Positions 1 through 32,000 of a stretch of 32,000 nucleotides of DNA are shown here, piece by piece (the first letter of the stretch is position 1; each line of letters starts with the position of its first letter). The position numbers were made by a program, and so were the translations under genes. The DNA lies in assembly GCA_965227835.1 (NCBI GenBank), contig OZ245768.1:690001-722000 (forward strand), given 5' to 3'. Origin of the DNA: Candidatus Saccharimonadota bacterium. Lineage in GTDB: Bacteria > Patescibacteriota > Gracilibacteria > BD1-5 > UBA6164. The notes beneath the pieces were generated by a model. That model saw nothing but the letters and a program-made list of their open reading frames with translations, had not been told where the DNA came from and did not search any database.

Positions 1-1706
1 AGTGCGGCTAAAGCATTTCATAGTTTATCGTTTAATACCACATCTTCTATTTTTTCTTTTGGAAGACTAGATTTTATAAAATCAAACAAAGCTTTTAAAT
101 CCTTAGATTTTTCTTCTTCTTGTTTTTTTTGTTTTTCAGTTTTTTGTTCTAATTCTATATCATCACTAGTTATAGAAATCAGTTTAGCTTCTTTATAATC
201 AGTAAAACTTTGCATTAAAAATGAATCTATAGGATCAGTTAGGATTAAAACATCTATATTTTTTTCTCTAAATTGATTTAGGTAAGGACTAGACAGGGCT
301 TCTGAGTGAGATTTAGATATTATATAGTAAATCTTCTTTGATGCTTTTTTGTTTTCTTCCTCATTTTCATTTTTATTATCATCTTTTTTAATTTCTTCTT
401 TTGAGTTACTTTTTGTATCCTCTGGAGCTTTCTCTAAATATTCATCAAGTGTTATTAGTGATGTATTATTCATTGATTTAAACATAGATATTTCTGCTAT
501 ATCTTGTTTTAGGTCATATTCATAATGTATTCATTCTTTTATAGTTTTTCAATAATTTTCCCAGAATTTTATATAATCTTCTCTTTTATTTTTCAAAGTT
601 TTTCAAAGTTCTGTTATAACTTTTTTTGTTAATCATTTTTTTATTTTATCCAGTGAGCTATTTGATTGAAGCATTTCTCTGCTTATGTTCAAAGGTAAAT
701 CTGAGGTTTCAACTACTCAAGAAATGAATCTAAGCCAAACAGGCATTAGCTCTTTTGCATTTTCTAAAATCAATACATTTTGTACATATAATCTTGGTCC
801 ATAATCAACATTTGGATCATTTAAGTTTTTATACATACTCACTTCTTTTGGAGAAAAAAGTATTGATTTATAAGATACCATTCATTCTACATTATTATGA
901 ATATGAAAAAGAGGATTATTCCAATCACTTGAAACTGTTTTATAAAACTCTTCATATTGCTCTTTTTTGATTTCAGATTTAGATTTTTTCCATATGGCTT
1001 TTGTTTCGTTTACTTGCTCAAAAGGCATTTCTTTTTTTTCTTTTTTCTTTTCTTCATCAGTTCTAGAATCATACTGCTTCATCATTATAGGAGTTGAAAT
1101 ATAGTTTGAATATTTTTTTACTAGTTCTTTTAATTTCCAATCTTCTAAATATTCTTTTTCCTCTTTTTTAATATATAAAGTAACTCTAGTTCACCTTGGT
1201 GCACTTTTGATATCCATTTCTTCTATAATATAGCTATCCTTTCAATCAGAAGACCATTTATAAGCTTTTTTATCTTCAGGACTTTTAGTAAATACCTCAA
1301 CTTTATCTGCAACCATAAAACTTGAATAAAATCAAACCCCAAATTGACCAATTAAACTATTTTCTCAAGATTCTTTTGCTTTTTTTAATTTCTCTAAAAA
1401 TTCTTTTGTTCCAGATTTTGCTATTGTTCAAAGATTTTTTTGTAATTCATTGTTTGTCATTCAAATACCGTTATCACTTACAGAAATGCTTTTATTTTTT
1501 TCATCTATTTCAATCATTATTTTAAACTCACTATCTTTTCATAAATAGTTTGTATCTGTTAGAGATTTTATCCTAGCTTTGTCTATTGCATCATTTGAGT
1601 TGGATATAAGTTCTCTTAAAAATATTTCTTTGTTTGAATATATACTGTGAGTTAAGAGTTCTAAAACTTTTCAGGTTTCAGCTTCAAAATTGTGTTTGTT
1701 GCTCAT
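1..1706 (-). CDS. htpG: Molecular chaperone HtpG (Hsp90 family); C-terminal end runs off the left edge of the window
   Basis: With TGA=Gly the minus frame is continuous from ATG 1704-1706 to position 1. N-terminus is [45 protein letters not shown] (Hsp90 ATPase motif). Track ORFs 18..485 and 882..1085 are in the same frame. The apparent stop at 18-20 is TGA, followed by NALAA. Confidence 0.93.
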
Positions 1707-1750
1707 TTTTTATTTAAAATTTAGGATATAAAATAAATTTTTTACCAAAT

Positions 1751-1783
1751 ATACTGGCACATAAATTATTTAAGTGCCAGTAT
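1751..1783. promoter_or_regulatory. Perfect 10-bp inverted repeat ATACTGGCAC-N13-GTGCCAGTAT, 45-77 nt upstream of the htpG start; candidate operator or hairpin
   Basis: Arms at 1751-1760 and 1774-1783 read directly from the sequence. Function is inferred only from position. Confidence 0.3.
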
Positions 1784-1830
1784 ATTATTACTTTTTATTG
1801 TTTAGTCAAGAAAAAAGCTAAAATTATAAA

Positions 1831-1859
1831 ACAGGTTCATACATCAAGTATGAACCTGT
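1831..1859 (-). terminator. Rho-independent terminator downstream of the small membrane-protein gene
   Basis: 11-bp stem ACAGGTTCATA/TATGAACCTGT with a 7-nt loop. On the minus strand it is followed by the T-rich run TTTATAATTTTAGCTTTTTT. Confidence 0.6.
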
Positions 1860-28152: not shown

Positions 28153-28231
28153 AAGCCAAAGTTTTTTATTTATATAATTGTTCCTATATTATATCATTAA
28201 AAACTTATGTCAATCATAAATTTTTAACTAA

Positions 28232-28260
28232 AAAAGAGATTTTTTTAGGAAATCTCTTTT
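28232..28260 (-). terminator. Terminator hairpin downstream of rpoC
   Basis: AAAAGAGATT-(9 nt)-AATCTCTTTT. On the minus strand the 3' arm ends in a U-run. Confidence 0.6.
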
Positions 28261-28279
28261 TTAAAAACCCAATTTTTAT

Positions 28280-31200
28280 CTAAAAATCACTTTCATGTTG
28301 CATTTTTTCGTTAAGTGTTTCTAGCTTCCTAGATGATATATCCTCTTCAAGTTCAGATGCATTGAAATATTCATCATCAAAATCTCACTCATAATCCTTA
28401 TTAAACAATTTCCTATATTGTCTACCAGCAGGAATAAGTCTACCAATGATAACATTCTCTTTAAGTTCTTGTAGTTTATCAATAGTAGCAGAAACTGATC
28501 ATTCAACCAACACCCTAACAGTTTCTTGGAAAGATGCAGCTGAAAGCCATGAATCAGTATGAAGAGATATTTTGGTAAGACCTAAAAGTAGTCTTTCTCA
28601 AAAAGCTGCTCTTTTTCCTTCTCTTACAAGTCTATCAGCCTCTTTTTTATAAGTAATAACATCAATAATATCTCATGGAAAAAATTCAGAATCTCATTTA
28701 TCAAGAATTCTAACTTTAGAAAACATTTGTCTAGTAACAAGTTCTATATGCTTAGAATTAACAGTTTGTCATTGAGATGAGTATATTGATTTTATTTCAT
28801 CAACTATATATTGCTCTGCCTTTATAACTCAAGAAACACTCATAAGCTTAGATATATTTAAAGCTCAATTAGTGATTTTATCTCAAGCTTCAACCTTATC
28901 TCAATCATTAACTATTATATTCTTTCATAAAGGAAACCTATATTCATATGATCTTGGAATTTCATCTTCTATAATTATTACACCATCTTCTATCTTTTTG
29001 ACTATTCAAGGAAATTTAGAAACTAATCTTTGTTTTTCTGTTTTATTTCTAGCAATTATTTGTTTTTCTTTAACTTTTGATCAAGTTTTTACAGCAAGTT
29101 CAAATTTAGGTCAATAATAATATTCTTCTCTAGTTATGTCTTCAGCTGTAACAGTAACTATAATATTTTGATCATCTTGTTTAACAGAAACAATTCAATC
29201 AATATCTACTATTTCAGCTTCTAACTTAGGAGTCCTAGCTTCAAATAATTCTTCAACACGGGCTAAACCTTGAGTCATATCTCAACCTTCTTGTGCTACT
29301 CATCAACTATGGAAAGTCCTCATCGTAAGCTGAGTACCTGGTTCTCAAATAGATTGAGCAGCTATTACTCAAACAGGTGTTCATATTTCAACATCTTTAC
29401 TTAGTCACAAATCAAGACCATAACATTTTTTACAAACTCATCATTCGGTTTCACATGTCAGAACAGATCTAATATTTATCTCATCTATGTTATTTTGATT
29501 AACTATTTCAAGAATAGTTTTATCAATAATAGTTCATTCTTCAATCAAAACTTTTCATTTAGAGTCTTTTACTGGTATAGCAACGGTATGAGAGAAAATT
29601 CTATCTTCAAAACTTTCATTAAATACTCATTCTGCCCCATTTCTCAATACTTTTTTAGAATGAACAGTATTACAATCATCCTCTTTTACAATTATATTTT
29701 GAGAAGCATCAACAAGTCTTCTTGTAAGATATCAAGATTGAGCTGTTTTAAGAGCAGTATCAGCTTTACCTTTCCTTCAACCATGAGTTGCTATGAAATA
29801 CTCCAAAGTAGAAAAACCTTCTTTCAAATTAGATTTAATTGGTAGCTCTATAGTTTCTCAAGTAGCAGAAGCTACAAGTCATTTCATTCAACACATCTGT
29901 GTTAGATTTCATAAATTTCACCTGGCACCAGAATCTATAAAATTAAATATATGATTAGAATCTGGGAATAGGTTTTTCATCTCATTCTCTATTTCATTTT
30001 TTACTTTTGCCCAAACTTTGATAGACTGAATTGTTTTTTCTTCTTCAGTCAAAAATCATGTCCAAGTTTTTTTCTGTATATATTTGATTTTATCTTCTGC
30101 AGTTGTAAGTAAACTATCTCTATTTTTAGGAACAATCATATCATTTTTTGATATTGAAAGACCTGAAAATGTAGAATATTTATATCAAAAGTTTTTTATC
30201 TCATCAGCAAATTTAGCTGTTATATCAGATCAAAGCATTTCAAAAGAATCTGCCAAAATTCTTTGTAGTACTTTTTTCTTCAAAGTTTCATTTATAAATC
30301 AAAGTTCTTCAGGAACTATTTCATTGAAAAGTAATCTACCATATGTAGTTTCATGTATTTGAGAATCTATTCTAACCTTTATTATAGCTTTAATATCAAG
30401 TGCTCCAGCCTCATAAGCTTGAGTAGCATCATTTAAACCAGAAAAAAGTTGTCATTCTCACATAGCTCCTTTTTTGACAGATGTAACATAATATGCACCA
30501 AGAATCATATCTTGAGAAGGTGACACAATAGGTTCTCAGCTAGATGGAGCAAGAAGATTTTTAGAAGTTACCATTAATTCTTTAGCTTCAGCTTGAGCTT
30601 TTGGTGTTATAGGCAAATGAATTGCCATTTGATCACCATCAAAGTCAGCATTAAAAGCTCAACATGTTAAAGGATGCAATTGTATGGCTTTACCCTCTAC
30701 TAAAACAGGTCTAAATGCTTGAACAGAAAGTCTATGAAGAGTAGGGGCTCTATTCATTAATACATATTTATCTCCTATAACATCATCTAAGGCATCCCAA
30801 ACTTCTTTTGACGAACTTTCTATAATCTTTTCAGCATGCTTTATATTATAAACAACTCAATCTTCTATAAGTTTAGCTACTATGAAGGGTTTGAAGAGTA
30901 TAAGTGCCATTTTTTTAGGTATACCACATTCATCCATTTTTAGATTAGGTCAAACAACTATTACTGATCTACCAGAATAATCAACTCTCTTACCAAGTAA
31001 ATTTTGTCTAAATCTACCTTGTTTACCTTTTAGTATTTCAGTTAGAGATTTTAATTTTTTCTTATTAGCTGTAACAAATCATGATCTATTTGTTCTAGTC
31101 TCACCAGTTATAAGCATATCAACAGATTCTTGAAGCATTCTTTTTTCATTTTTTAGAATTACATCAGGAGCACCAAGTTCTATTAATTTTTTAAGTCTAT

Positions 31201-32000
31201 TATTTCTATTTATAACTCTTCTATAAAGATCATTTAAATCAGAGGAAGCAAATCTTCAACCATCAAGCTGAATCATTGGTCTTAAATCTGGGGGTAATAT
31301 AGGTAATGCCTCCAATATAAACCGTTCTGGTTTTTGACCAGATTTTAAAAGACTAGAAGCTAATTTGATTTTTTGCATAATCTTTTTTTGTTTCAAAGCT
31401 GTTGCTGATTTAAGCTCTATTTGTCTTTCTTTTATGAAAACTTTCAAATCAATTTTTTTCAAAAGTTTTTGTAAATACTCTGCTCAAGTACCTCAATCAA
31501 ATACATGAGGAAATTTTTCATTTAATACCCTATATTCCAATTCTCATATTACCTCTCATTGTTTAAGAGTTTTAAGACTACTTTTTAAATTATCAAATTC
31601 TTCACTGAAATCATCTAGCTCTTTCATAATTATAGCTTCACTTTCTGCAAATTTTTTAGCACTTATAGCTTTTTTCTCTTTTTGTATTCTTAGTTCATTA
31701 ACTTCTTTTTGTATTTTTTTTTGCATTTCTACTTTAGAAGCTTTGAATCTTTCTTCTAATTCTTTTATACTTTCTTGTTTTTTATCTTCATAGACATCTG
31801 TGATTATATATGATGCAAAATAAACTACTTGTTCTAGTTTTTTTACAGGTAGATCTAAAAGTAAACCTATTCTTGATGGAACAGATTTTAAAAACCATAT
31901 ATGAGCTACAGGAGAATAAAGATCAATATGCCCCATCCTTTCTCTTCTAGTTGAAGTTTTTGTAACTTCAACTCAACATCTTTCACAAACTATTCATTTA
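28280..32000 (-). CDS. rpoC: DNA-directed RNA polymerase subunit beta' (N-terminal about 70 aa lie beyond the right edge)
   Basis: [34 protein letters not shown]-[TGA][24 protein letters not shown], [11 protein letters not shown]-terminus [15 protein letters not shown]...[15 protein letters not shown] stop at 28280-28282. Frame checked codon by codon over 30902-31258. Confidence 0.97.

What the first reader, a model, noticed from the sequence alone, without database searches (positions are those of the whole stretch)
1..32000. In-frame TGA is read as glycine throughout the window (genetic code 25, SR1/Gracilibacteria type)
- Under the standard code every conserved gene here is cut into fragments, and the breaks are always TGA, never TAA or TAG.
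- Treating TGA as sense gives full-length genes whose ATG-to-TAA/TAG spans are exact multiples of 3.
- The TGA codons fall on invariant glycines:
  - RpoC QLDG-[TGA 31256-31258][14 protein letters not shown].
  - The ATPase Walker A VI-[TGA 3522-3524]-QTGT-[TGA 3507-3509]-KS.
  - ValRS HL-[TGA 14270-14272]-H and KMSKSLGN.
  - RuvC GIDPG, RlmE DIGAAPG and Mia[12 protein letters not shown].
- Trp is still encoded by TGG at conserved Trp positions, so this is not code 4.
- TGA appears to be the majority Gly codon in most genes, for example 9 of 10 in 15193..15561.
- The recoding itself is already described for these CPR lineages, but it determines how everything else in this window is read.
Basis: partly seen in the sequence, partly recalled or inferred. 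Interest (0 to 1): 0.8.

Follow-up and report, generated by a model that had tools for sequence, protein, structure and literature searches.

The report
UGA read as glycine (code 25)
This stretch of a very AT-rich Gracilibacteria (BD1-5) chromosome reads the usual stop codon TGA as glycine, a known recoding, and probably also reads the rare codon CGG as tryptophan, which standard table 25 would get wrong.

Summary

- **Reading frames:** inside 24 genes there are 358 in-frame TGA and no in-frame TAA or TAG. Coding density rises from 35% under table 11 to 88% with TGA as sense.
- **TGA means glycine:** against E. coli K-12 orthologues, 76 of 130 aligned TGA sit on Gly and 1 on Trp (p = 2e-53). 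In 78 standard-code RpoC sequences, 27 of the 52 near-invariant Gly columns are TGA here, and all three near-invariant Trp columns are TGG.
- **Usage:** TGA makes up 68% of Gly codons. All 23 stops are TAA or TAG.
- **Lineage:** low-GC Gracilibacteria/BD1-5, where code 25 is already proven by proteomics. The main finding is therefore correct but already known.
- **Not testable here:** tRNA-Gly(UCA) and loss of prfB.

- **CGG:** the window's only CGG codon (31322-31324) lies on a conserved Trp column. A conserved tRNA with anticodon CCG (23116-23192) carries two of the three tRNA-Trp identity criteria used in the published screen. This matches the published prediction of CGG to Trp in some BD1-5 genomes.
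- **Database error:** the public translation of this same genome renders all 50 RpoC TGA codons as Trp.

The parts
3..1706 (-). htpG (Hsp90), C-terminus cut by the window start; 15 TGA and 5 GGN
   Evidence: Pfam HSP90 1e-80 with X placed at TGA. Of 15 TGA aligned to E. coli HtpG, 9 fall on Gly.
2313..4742 (-). TraG/VirD4-like membrane P-loop ATPase; 23 TGA, including both Walker A glycines (3522-3524 and 3507-3509)
   Evidence: The Pfam TraG-D_C match is weak, below the cutoff.
4907..5146 (+). 79-aa ORF with 2 TGA, directly upstream of the antitoxin gene; possible toxin partner (inferred)
   Evidence: ORF scan. No Pfam match.
5157..5435 (+). CopG/BrnA-type antitoxin gene with no TGA
   Evidence: Pfam CopG_antitoxin 2.7e-8, 34.9 bits against a cutoff of 28.
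5464..5709 (-). yidD; 4 TGA
   Evidence: Pfam YidD 1e-19.
5720..7198 (-). Bacterial sugar transferase; 13 TGA
   Evidence: Pfam Bac_transf 9e-57.
7521..8750 (+). Secreted peptidoglycan-binding protein, paralogue of the next gene; at least 23 TGA. The start is inferred as TTG 7521 (or ATT 7503), not the ATG at 7671.
   Evidence: PG_binding_1 match. Paralogy extends upstream of the ATG.
9018..10307 (+). Paralogous secreted peptidoglycan-binding protein; 27 TGA and 7 GGN
10302..11747 (-). miaB; 19 TGA, including 11202-11204 in the radical-SAM motif [11 protein letters not shown]
   Evidence: Pfam match. Of 18 aligned TGA, 11 fall on E. coli Gly. Coordinates.
11750..14446 (-). valS; 36 TGA, including the HIGH motif (14270-14272) and KMSKS-L-G-N (12806-12808); 16 TGG
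   Evidence: Of 34 aligned TGA, 18 fall on E. coli Gly and none on Trp. Coordinates.
14633..15034 (+). Small membrane protein; 1 TGA and 5 GGN, the TGA lying two codons before the stop
15193..15561 (+). Small membrane protein; 9 TGA and 1 GGN
15871..16569 (+). rlmE/ftsJ; 10 TGA, including the SAM motif DI-G-AAP-G (16105-16107 and 16117-16119)
   Evidence: Pfam FtsJ 3e-36. Of 8 aligned TGA, 6 fall on Gly. Coordinates.
16674..17105 (+). Unknown protein; 4 TGA
17236..17817 (+). YgjP-like metallopeptidase; 3 TGA
17824..18756 (+). Na/Ca exchanger family transporter; 18 TGA
18836..19339 (+). Unknown protein; 3 TGA
19584..20744 (-). MscS-type mechanosensitive channel; 17 TGA
21037..21414 (-). IS200-type Y1 transposase; 11 TGA and 0 GGN
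   Evidence: Pfam Y1_Tnp 5e-20. Codon counts.
21700..23073 (-). Peptidase U32; 18 TGA
   Evidence: Pfam match. All 18 TGA columns have Gly as the majority residue in relatives whose translations do not render TGA as W.
23116..23192 (-). tRNA with anticodon CCG, called tRNA-Arg by ARAGORN. It carries A1:U72, G73, A37, D loop AAUUAGAA, T loop UGCAAUU and a 9-nt anticodon loop. It is the candidate decoder of CGG as Trp.
   Evidence: ARAGORN. Rfam tRNA 47 bits. 22 distinct orthologues are 99.6% paired, with compensatory changes at 10 pairs.
23230..23625 (-). MAPEG family membrane protein; 7 TGA and 0 GGN
23654..24154 (-). ruvC; 9 TGA, including G-IDP-G (24137-24139 and 24125-24127)
   Evidence: Pfam RuvC 5e-37. 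Of 7 aligned TGA, 5 fall on Gly. Coordinates.
24454..25827 (-). Unknown 457-aa protein; 14 TGA
26040..27410 (-). Fatty-acid desaturase family protein; 12 TGA
27487..28152 (-). OmpR-type response regulator; 12 TGA
28280..32000 (-). rpoC, N-terminus cut by the window end; 52 in-frame TGA and 35 GGN
   Evidence: PDB hits at 1e-292 with X placed at TGA. Panel of 78 standard-code genomes.
31256..31258 (-). TGA at Rpo[20 protein letters not shown]
   Evidence: The column is Gly in 78 of 78 standard-code RpoC (position 248). Coordinates.
31322..31324 (-). The only CGG codon in the window's genes, in RpoC KPE-[CGG]-FILEALP
   Evidence: The column is W in 51 of 78 and R in 0 of 78 standard-code RpoC. 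It is W in 30 of 30 cleanly translated Gracilibacteria RpoC. Three relatives also carry CGG there.

Best explanation
The window is chromosomal DNA of a low-GC (25.5%) member of the Gracilibacteria/BD1-5 lineage (GTDB class JAEDAM01) that uses genetic code 25. UGA is a sense codon for glycine, and only UAA and UAG terminate translation.

**Shown here**
- In-frame TGA is abundant: about 40 per 1000 codons and 68% of all Gly codons.
- TGA never coincides with gene ends.
- TGA falls on glycine columns of standard-code orthologues.
- TGG keeps the tryptophan columns.

**Inferred from published work on the lineage, not shown here**
- Decoding is by an extra tRNA-Gly with anticodon UCA.
- Release factor 2 has been lost.
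- AT mutation pressure has then driven GGN to TGA replacement, so that the recoded codon became the dominant glycine codon.

**Probable addition (about 0.65)**
CGG is read as tryptophan rather than arginine. The decoder would be the tRNA(CCG) encoded at 23116-23192. This matches the Codetta prediction for some BD1-5 genomes.
For: **Reading frames**
- There are 358 TGA, 0 TAA and 0 TAG in frame in 24 genes.
- Coding density is 34.8% under table 11 and 88.4% with TGA as sense.
- With X placed at TGA, Pfam and PDB still give full-length matches.

**Meaning of TGA**
- Against six E. coli K-12 orthologues, 76 of 130 aligned TGA fall on Gly, 15 on Ala, 1 on Trp and 0 on Cys. The Gly background is 6.9%, giving binomial p = 1.7e-53.
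- TGG aligns to Trp in 74% of cases, and E. coli Gly aligns most often to TGA.
- Against 78 standard-code RpoC, the majority residue is Gly in 34 of 48 TGA columns. Of the 52 columns that are at least 90% Gly, the window has TGA in 27 and GGN in 22. All three columns that are at least 90% Trp are TGG.

**Composition and lineage**
- Gly content is 5.8% with TGA counted and 1.8% without.
- The top 120 hits for RpoC and for U32 are Gracilibacteria where a source gives a name.
- TGA counts in RpoC are 3 and 6 in the two relatives at 36-38% GC, and 49-54 in relatives at 25-27% GC.

**Literature**
- Proteomics found 97 Gly-specific peptides against 3 Trp-specific peptides in a BD1-5 bacterium (PMC4032931).
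- prfB is reported absent from all BD1-5 genomes (PMC6851277).
- SR1, the sister lineage, carries an additional tRNA-Gly(UCA) (PMC3812714).

**CGG**.
Against: - No tRNA with anticodon UCA and no release-factor gene lies in the window, so the decoding machinery of this genome was not seen.
- No protein-level evidence exists for this organism.
- TGA falls on Gly somewhat less often than GGN does (58% against 80% versus E. coli, Fisher p = 0.004). This fits TGA being favoured at less constrained sites, but it would also be expected if a minority of TGA were decoded otherwise.
- For CGG, only one codon lies in the window. By the usual numbering the tRNA(CCG) has A20, C35 and G36, which are arginine identity elements in E. 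coli.
Confidence: 0.96

Rival explanations
1. Genetic code 4: TGA is read as tryptophan, as in Mycoplasmatales and several insect endosymbionts.
For: Code 4 gives the same ORF structure and coding density as code 25. The public translation of this very genome uses W at all 50 RpoC TGA positions.
Against: Only 1 of 130 aligned TGA falls on an E. coli Trp. No TGA falls on a conserved Trp column of RpoC, while 27 fall on columns that are at least 90% Gly. Code 4 would give RpoC 4.6% Trp and 3.0% Gly.
Confidence: 0.01
2. TGA is a true stop, and the genes are pseudogenes or are broken by assembly or sequencing errors.
For: Under table 11 every conserved gene is fragmented.
Against: There are 358 interruptions, all TGA and none TAA or TAG, in a genome where TAA is the commonest out-of-frame stop triplet. 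There are no frameshifts. The interruptions sit on glycine columns. Hundreds of related contigs from independent samples show the same pattern.
Confidence: 0.005
3. TGA encodes selenocysteine.
For: TGA is the Sec codon in many bacteria.
Against: None of the 130 aligned TGA falls on Cys. TGA makes up 4% of all codons in every kind of protein. Rfam found no SECIS element or tRNA-Sec.
Confidence: 0.002
4. Plain table 25 is the whole story. CGG is an ordinary, nearly extinct arginine codon, and the tRNA at 23116-23192 is a normal tRNA-Arg(CCG).
For: - ARAGORN calls it tRNA-Arg.
- By the Rfam alignment the D loop has A at position 20, and the anticodon has C35 and G36. All three are ArgRS identity elements.
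- Codetta left CGG unassigned in 6 of 8 low-GC BD1-5 genomes.
- There is only one CGG codon in the window.
Against: - That one CGG codon is on a column with W in 51 of 78 and R in 0 of 78 standard-code RpoC. The same column is W in 30 of 30 cleanly translated Gracilibacteria RpoC.
- All CGG codons in the RpoC genes of L087 and L088/L089 are also on Trp columns, one of them invariant W.
- R is the only recurrent non-W residue at Trp columns, in 11 of 14 non-W cells across 240 relatives.
- The window's CGT codon in RpoC sits on an invariant Arg column.
- The tRNA has invariant A1:U72 and G73, as in E. coli and Janibacter tRNA-Trp. It has A37, where E. coli argX has G37.
Confidence: 0.3
5. TGA has a dual or ambiguous meaning: mostly Gly, with occasional termination or Trp misreading that depends on context.
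For: TGA is less concentrated on Gly columns than GGN. Proteomics of a BD1-5 bacterium found rare Trp, Ala, Asp and Lys peptides at UGA. One gene has a TGA two codons before its TAA stop (14633-15034).
Against: Protein lengths match E. coli orthologues without early ends. Every gene has a TAA or TAG stop. No bacterial precedent for context-dependent UGA termination together with a sense reading came up in the papers read here.
Confidence: 0.04

Closest known systems
NCBI translation table 25 (candidate division SR1 and Gracilibacteria code; UGA to Gly), described by Campbell 2013 and Rinke 2013 and validated by proteomics in Hanke 2014 (PMC4032931)
   Same: - In-frame UGA falls on conserved glycines.
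- UGG is kept for Trp.
- Only UAA and UAG are used as stops.
- The genome is low-GC and reduced, and belongs to the BD1-5 lineage.
   Different: Nothing differs in kind. Usage is at the extreme end: TGA is 68% of Gly codons and four times as frequent as TGG. In the two higher-GC relatives fetched, RpoC has only 3-6 TGA against 93-95 GGN.
CGG (and CGA) to Trp reassignment predicted by Codetta in Absconditabacteria and in some low-GC BD1-5 genomes (Shulgina and Eddy 2021, PMC8629427, fig4-data1)
   Same: - GC is 0.21-0.29.
- CGG is nearly extinct.
- tRNA(CCG) is present.
- AGA is the dominant Arg codon.
- The CGG codons seen sit on Trp columns.
   Different: - The published call covers 2 of 8 BD1-5 species, with '?' for the rest. 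This genome is not shown to be among them.
- CGA is absent from the window, so its meaning cannot be judged.
- By the paper's own rule the tRNA does not classify cleanly as a Trp acceptor, because A20 appears to be present.
Genetic code 4 (UGA to Trp; Mycoplasmatales, Hodgkinia, Zinderia, Nasuia and others)
   Same: UGA is sense, the genomes are low-GC and reduced, and RF2 loss is expected. ORF structure is identical, which is why density-based gene callers cannot tell tables 4 and 25 apart.
   Different: The amino acid is Gly, not Trp. In code 25 the decoder is an extra tRNA-Gly(UCA), rather than a tRNA-Trp(UCA) that reads both UGA and UGG.

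Membership tests
Genetic code 25 (UGA = Gly) | UGA occurs in frame inside conserved genes and does not end them | tested here: met
   358 in-frame TGA and 0 in-frame TAA or TAG in 24 genes. 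Coding density is 88% against 35% under table 11. Protein lengths match E. coli orthologues.
Genetic code 25 (UGA = Gly) | UGA aligns with glycine at conserved columns of standard-code homologues | tested here: met
   76 of 130 aligned TGA fall on E. coli Gly (p = 1.7e-53). 27 of the 52 RpoC columns that are at least 90% Gly are TGA.
Genetic code 25 (UGA = Gly) | UGG, not UGA, carries tryptophan | tested here: met
   TGG aligns to W in 74% of cases. 1 of 130 TGA falls on W. All three RpoC columns that are at least 90% Trp are TGG.
Genetic code 25 (UGA = Gly) | A tRNA(UCA) with glycine identity (G1:C72, C2:G71, G3:C70, U73) | not testable with these tools
   The only tRNA in the window has anticodon CCG. 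No UCA anticodon was found in any BD1-5 or SR1 locus fetched. The rest of the genome could not be reached.
Genetic code 25 (UGA = Gly) | Loss of release factor 2 (prfB) | not testable with these tools
   Absence cannot be shown from 32 kb. The literature reports prfB absent from all BD1-5 genomes (PMC6851277).
Genetic code 25 (UGA = Gly) | Membership of the Absconditabacterales/BD1-5 clade (GTDB class JAEDAM01) | tested here: met
   All named hits among the top 120 for RpoC and for U32 are Candidatus Gracilibacteria, including HOT-871 and 28_42_T64. No tree was built.
Genetic code 4 (UGA = Trp) | UGA aligns with tryptophan | tested here: not met
   1 of 130 TGA falls on Trp, and no TGA sits on a conserved Trp column.
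CGG to Trp reassignment (Codetta candidate) | CGG falls on conserved Trp columns, not on Arg columns | tested here: met
   The window has one CGG codon, and it falls on a Trp column. In relatives, 3 of 3 CGG codons fall on Trp columns, one of them invariant W. The sample is very small.
CGG to Trp reassignment (Codetta candidate) | Low GC with CGG nearly extinct and AGA the dominant Arg codon | tested here: met
   GC is 25.5%. Codon counts are CGG 1, CGA 0, CGC 0, CGT 8, AGA 252 and AGG 58.
CGG to Trp reassignment (Codetta candidate) | A dedicated tRNA(CCG) is present and tRNA(UCG) is absent | tested here: inconclusive
   tRNA(CCG) is present and conserved. Absence of tRNA(UCG) cannot be judged from one window.
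CGG to Trp reassignment (Codetta candidate) | The tRNA(CCG) has Trp identity (G73 and not A20; A/G1:U72 counts as support) | tested here: inconclusive
   G73 and A1:U72 are invariant in 22 distinct orthologues. However, the D loop AAUUAGAA places an A at position 20 in the Rfam alignment. The loop is atypical (A18, with G55 in the T loop), so the numbering is uncertain.

The most novel reading that the evidence does not exclude
The organism's code is not table 25 but table 25 plus CGG to Trp, a combination for which, as far as I know, no standard NCBI table exists. The window would then contain the decoder: a tRNA(CCG) descended from tRNA-Trp.

Features pointing to a tRNA-Trp origin are A1:U72, G73 and A37. 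The tRNA also has an unusual architecture that is conserved across the clade:
- five covarying anticodon-stem pairs plus an invariant A.C juxtaposition, which gives either a 9-nt loop or a sixth pair
- an A18/G55 swap of the D-loop/T-loop tertiary pair
Probability: 0.55. Interest if true: 0.5.

Novelty: already known. Interest (0 to 1): 0.25.

Why it matters
**Practical.** Any annotation of this region with table 11 destroys every gene. Annotation with table 4 silently writes Trp for two thirds of all glycines. That error is present in the public protein collection for this very genome: RpoC has 50 of 50 TGA rendered as W. Many relatives are affected too, with RpoC translations at 3-5% W. This corrupts alignments, HMM building and structure prediction for the clade. 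It also made a pattern search fail here.

**Biological.** The window shows a late stage of a stop-to-sense reassignment, in which the captured codon has become the main codon of its amino acid.

It probably also shows an early stage of a sense-to-sense reassignment (CGG to Trp), together with its tRNA. That makes this clade a good place to test codon-capture models.

Tried and rejected
- **Reaching the rest of the genome.** An exact look-up of the identical public RpoC (P0001) found no indexed contig. So tRNA-Gly(UCA) and prfB could not be checked.
- **First genome-contig scan.** The scan with P0001 found nothing, because that public sequence has W at TGA and the patterns were built on those false Trp. 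Repeating it with X at TGA mostly returned the universal NADFDGDQM motif from unrelated bacteria. I reused those hits as a 77-genome standard-code reference panel.
- **Code-4 control.** The one Mycoplasma locus (L070) has essentially no TGA inside aligned RpoC columns (2 columns), so it was uninformative.
- **Synteny for the tRNA(CCG).** Three Gracilibacteria genomes (L090-L092) have no tRNA upstream of U32. The orthologues were found instead with a loop-anchored pattern in metagenomes.
- **Overall tRNA identity.** Whole-sequence identity of the tRNA to E. coli trpT and argX does not discriminate, at 46 against 46 positions.
- **Other non-coding RNA.** Rfam at E < 0.5 gave nothing besides the tRNA and a chance snoRNA hit.
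- **Spurious ORF.** ORF 5234-5533(-) from the mechanical list overlaps the antitoxin gene and yidD and was dropped as spurious.

Full report
**What is in the window.**

The sequence is 25.5% G+C. Reading TGA as sense gives 26 protein genes and one tRNA. The genes include htpG, a TraG/VirD4-like ATPase, a CopG/BrnA antitoxin pair, yidD, a sugar transferase, two paralogous peptidoglycan-binding proteins, miaB, valS, rlmE, a YgjP peptidase, a Na/Ca exchanger, mscS, an IS200-type transposase, a U32 peptidase, a MAPEG protein, ruvC, a desaturase, a response regulator and rpoC. These are housekeeping genes of a cellular chromosome, not of a phage or plasmid.

**Check of the observation.**

- Inside 24 genes the coding frame contains 358 TGA and no TAA or TAG.
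- The other two frames contain 508/304 and 447/220 TAA/TAG, so the absence of TAA and TAG in frame is not a composition effect.
- A greedy non-overlapping ORF set covers 34.8% of the window under table 11 (mean 91 aa) and 88.4% with TGA as sense (mean 349 aa).
- The control recodings of TAG or TAA give many short ORFs, with means of 92 and 114 aa.
- All 23 complete genes of the first map end in TAA (18) or TAG (5).
- TGA is 360 of 526 TGA+GGN codons (68%). It is the majority Gly codon in 21 of 24 genes and accounts for 9 of 10 in 15193..15561.

**Which amino acid.**

To avoid circularity I translated TGA as X and compared only with organisms that use the standard code.

*E. coli orthologues.* I used E. 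coli K-12 RpoC, ValRS, HtpG, RuvC, MiaB and RlmE.

- 130 TGA codons fall in aligned columns: 76 on Gly, 15 on Ala, 1 on Trp and 0 on Cys.
- The Gly background is 6.9%, giving p = 1.7e-53.
- TGG aligns with Trp in 74% of cases.
- E. coli glycines align to TGA more often than to any other codon.

*RpoC panel.* A genome scan returned rpoC loci from 77 standard-code bacteria. I aligned these together with E. coli.

- The majority residue at 34 of 48 TGA columns is Gly.
- Of the 52 columns that are at least 90% Gly, the window has TGA in 27 and GGN in 22.
- The three columns that are at least 90% Trp are all TGG.
- TGA never sits on a conserved column of any residue except Gly (27) and Ala (1).

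With TGA counted, glycine is 5.8% of residues. Without it the figure would be 1.8%. Code 4, pseudogenisation and selenocysteine are therefore excluded.

**Lineage and what is known.**

The best database hit to RpoC is identical at all 1218 non-TGA positions. It comes from a 1,489,121-bp NCBI/ENA contig. All named hits are Candidatus Gracilibacteria, including HOT-871 and 28_42_T64.

For this lineage (BD1-5, GTDB class JAEDAM01):

- UGA = Gly was predicted in 2012-2013 and confirmed by proteomics, with 97 Gly-specific against 3 Trp-specific peptides (PMC4032931).
- prfB is reported absent from all BD1-5 genomes (PMC6851277).
- An additional tRNA-Gly(UCA) is the described decoder in the sister lineage SR1 (PMC3812714; PMC8629427).

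What I could not do is see the tRNA-Gly(UCA) or the absence of prfB in this genome. Neither can be judged from 32 kb, and the genome could not be reached beyond the window.

**Degree of use.**

In the two higher-GC relatives fetched, a Gracilibacterium at 38% GC and an SR1 bacterium at 36% GC, RpoC has 3 and 6 TGA against 95 and 93 GGN. In relatives at 25-27% GC it has 49-54 TGA. The window's RpoC has 52.

The recoded codon has thus rebounded to become the main Gly codon in the AT-rich branch. This agrees with the idea that UGA = Gly lowers GC content (PMC3812714).

GGN is somewhat enriched at conserved glycines. GGN aligns to E. coli Gly in 80% of cases against 58% for TGA (p = 0.004). I read this as TGA arising more easily at variable sites, but it was not tested further.

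*The codon.* The window's genes contain CGT 8 times, CGC 0, CGA 0 and CGG once. The CGT codon in RpoC is on an invariant Arg column. The single CGG (31322-31324, RpoC KPE-[CGG]-FILEALP) is on a column that is W in 51, G in 13, A in 9 and R in 0 of 78 standard-code RpoC. That column is W in all 30 Gracilibacteria RpoC whose translations do not render TGA as W.

*Relatives.* Four other relatives show R at this column. For the two whose DNA I fetched (three contigs), the codon is CGG. A further CGG in one of them lies on the invariant Trp of ...SIKV-W-A.... Across 120 RpoC and 120 U32 relatives, R is the only recurrent non-W residue at Trp columns, in 11 of 14 non-W cells.

*The tRNA.* The window also encodes a tRNA with anticodon CCG, 42 nt upstream of the U32 gene. 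A loop-anchored pattern found it in 26 low-GC metagenome contigs.

- The 22 distinct sequences keep the cloverleaf in 99.6% of cells. Ten pairs show compensatory changes, and 0 of 500 shuffles reach the observed covariation score. It is therefore a functional, conserved gene.
- A1:U72, A2:U71, G3:C70, G4:C69, G73, the encoded CCA and the T loop UGCAAUU are invariant or nearly so.
- A1:U72 and G73 are shared with E. coli and Janibacter tRNA-Trp. E. coli tRNA-Arg(CCG) has G1:C72 and G37, whereas this tRNA has A37.
- Against a Trp identity, the D loop AAUUAGAA puts an A at position 20, which is an arginine identity element. The published rule of thumb therefore does not classify it cleanly.
- The anticodon arm is unusual: five covarying pairs, then an A and a C flanking UUCCGAC. 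This can be read as a 9-nt loop or as a sixth A.C pair. That loop and the D loop were fixed by my search pattern, so their invariance in the hits proves nothing.

*Fit with the literature.* Shulgina and Eddy (PMC8629427) predicted CGG to Trp in Absconditabacteria and in 2 of 8 low-GC BD1-5 genomes. They left the other six unassigned because CGG is so rare. All eight lack tRNA(UCG) and six of them carry tRNA(CCG).

The window fits that group. I put the probability that CGG is Trp here at about 0.65.

**Database consequence.**

The public translation of this genome's RpoC has W at all 50 TGA positions. Many relatives have 3-5% W. Density-based code selection cannot separate table 4 from table 25. 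This mistranslation caused my first pattern scan to fail.

**Verdict.**

The phenomenon is already known for this lineage. Interest is low for the main claim and moderate for the CGG and tRNA(CCG) side finding.

Noticed in passing
window 31322-31324 (-), in rpoC: The only CGG codon in all the window's genes sits on a conserved Trp column. That column is W in 51 of 78 and R in 0 of 78 standard-code RpoC, and W in 30 of 30 cleanly translated Gracilibacteria. Relatives L087, L088 and L089 carry CGG at the same column, and L088/L089 also carry CGG on an invariant Trp column. This suggests CGG = Trp, as Codetta predicted for some BD1-5 genomes.
   Followed up: yes
window 23116-23192 (-); orthologues in L095-L122: A tRNA with anticodon CCG that ARAGORN calls Arg. 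It has invariant A1:U72, G73 and A37, a D loop AAUUAGAA (A18 instead of G18), a T loop UGCAAUU (G55 instead of U55), and a 9-nt anticodon loop or a sixth A.C pair. It is conserved in 22 distinct low-GC metagenome sequences, with compensatory changes at 10 pairs. Whether it accepts Trp or Arg is unresolved.
   Followed up: partly
P0001 (identical to the window's RpoC) and many of P0002-P0120: Public protein translations of this genome and many relatives render TGA as W, as under table 4. All 50 TGA positions in RpoC are affected, and RpoC shows 3-5% Trp. JGI members of one cluster are 91-169-aa table-11 fragments.
   Followed up: partly
all genes aligned to E. coli: GGN codons are more concentrated on conserved glycines than TGA codons (80% against 58% on E. 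coli Gly, Fisher p = 0.004). RpoC keeps relatively more GGN (35 of 87 Gly codons) than small or membrane proteins, several of which have no GGN at all.
   Followed up: no
window 7503-8750 and 9018-10307 (+): Two tandem paralogues, about 72% nucleotide identity over about 340 nt, encode secreted proteins with PG_binding_1 repeats and a shared N-terminal domain (...YFxVTAYYSPLP...RxDxWVGYGDEG...) that got no Pfam match. The first has no ATG upstream of the conserved part and probably starts at TTG 7521 or ATT 7503.
   Followed up: partly
window 8773-8905 (+): Three copies of a 25-nt unit (CAACAAAGAGCTTTAGCTCTTTGAA) lie in the spacer between the two paralogues, with start-to-start spacings of 40 and 68 nt. 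Each contains a short hairpin (AAAGAGC..GCTCTTT). Their function is unknown.
   Followed up: no
window 19332-19583 (+): The spacer after gene 18836-19339 repeats that gene's upstream region (18786-18826 against 19332-19372, 88%) and part of its 3' coding region (19158-19225 against 19454-19521, 79%). It also holds a perfect 29-nt tandem duplication (19409-19467). It looks like the remnant of a tandem gene copy.
   Followed up: no
window 4907-5435 (+): The 721-bp apparent gap between the ATPase gene and yidD holds a CopG/BrnA-type antitoxin gene (5157-5435, Pfam 2.7e-8). It is preceded by a 79-aa ORF (4907-5146) with no family match. This is probably a type II toxin-antitoxin pair.
   Followed up: partly
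window 21037-21414 (-): An IS200-type Y1 transposase gene encodes all 11 of its glycines with TGA and none with GGN. The element is therefore adapted to the host's code rather than recently acquired from a standard-code donor.
   Followed up: no
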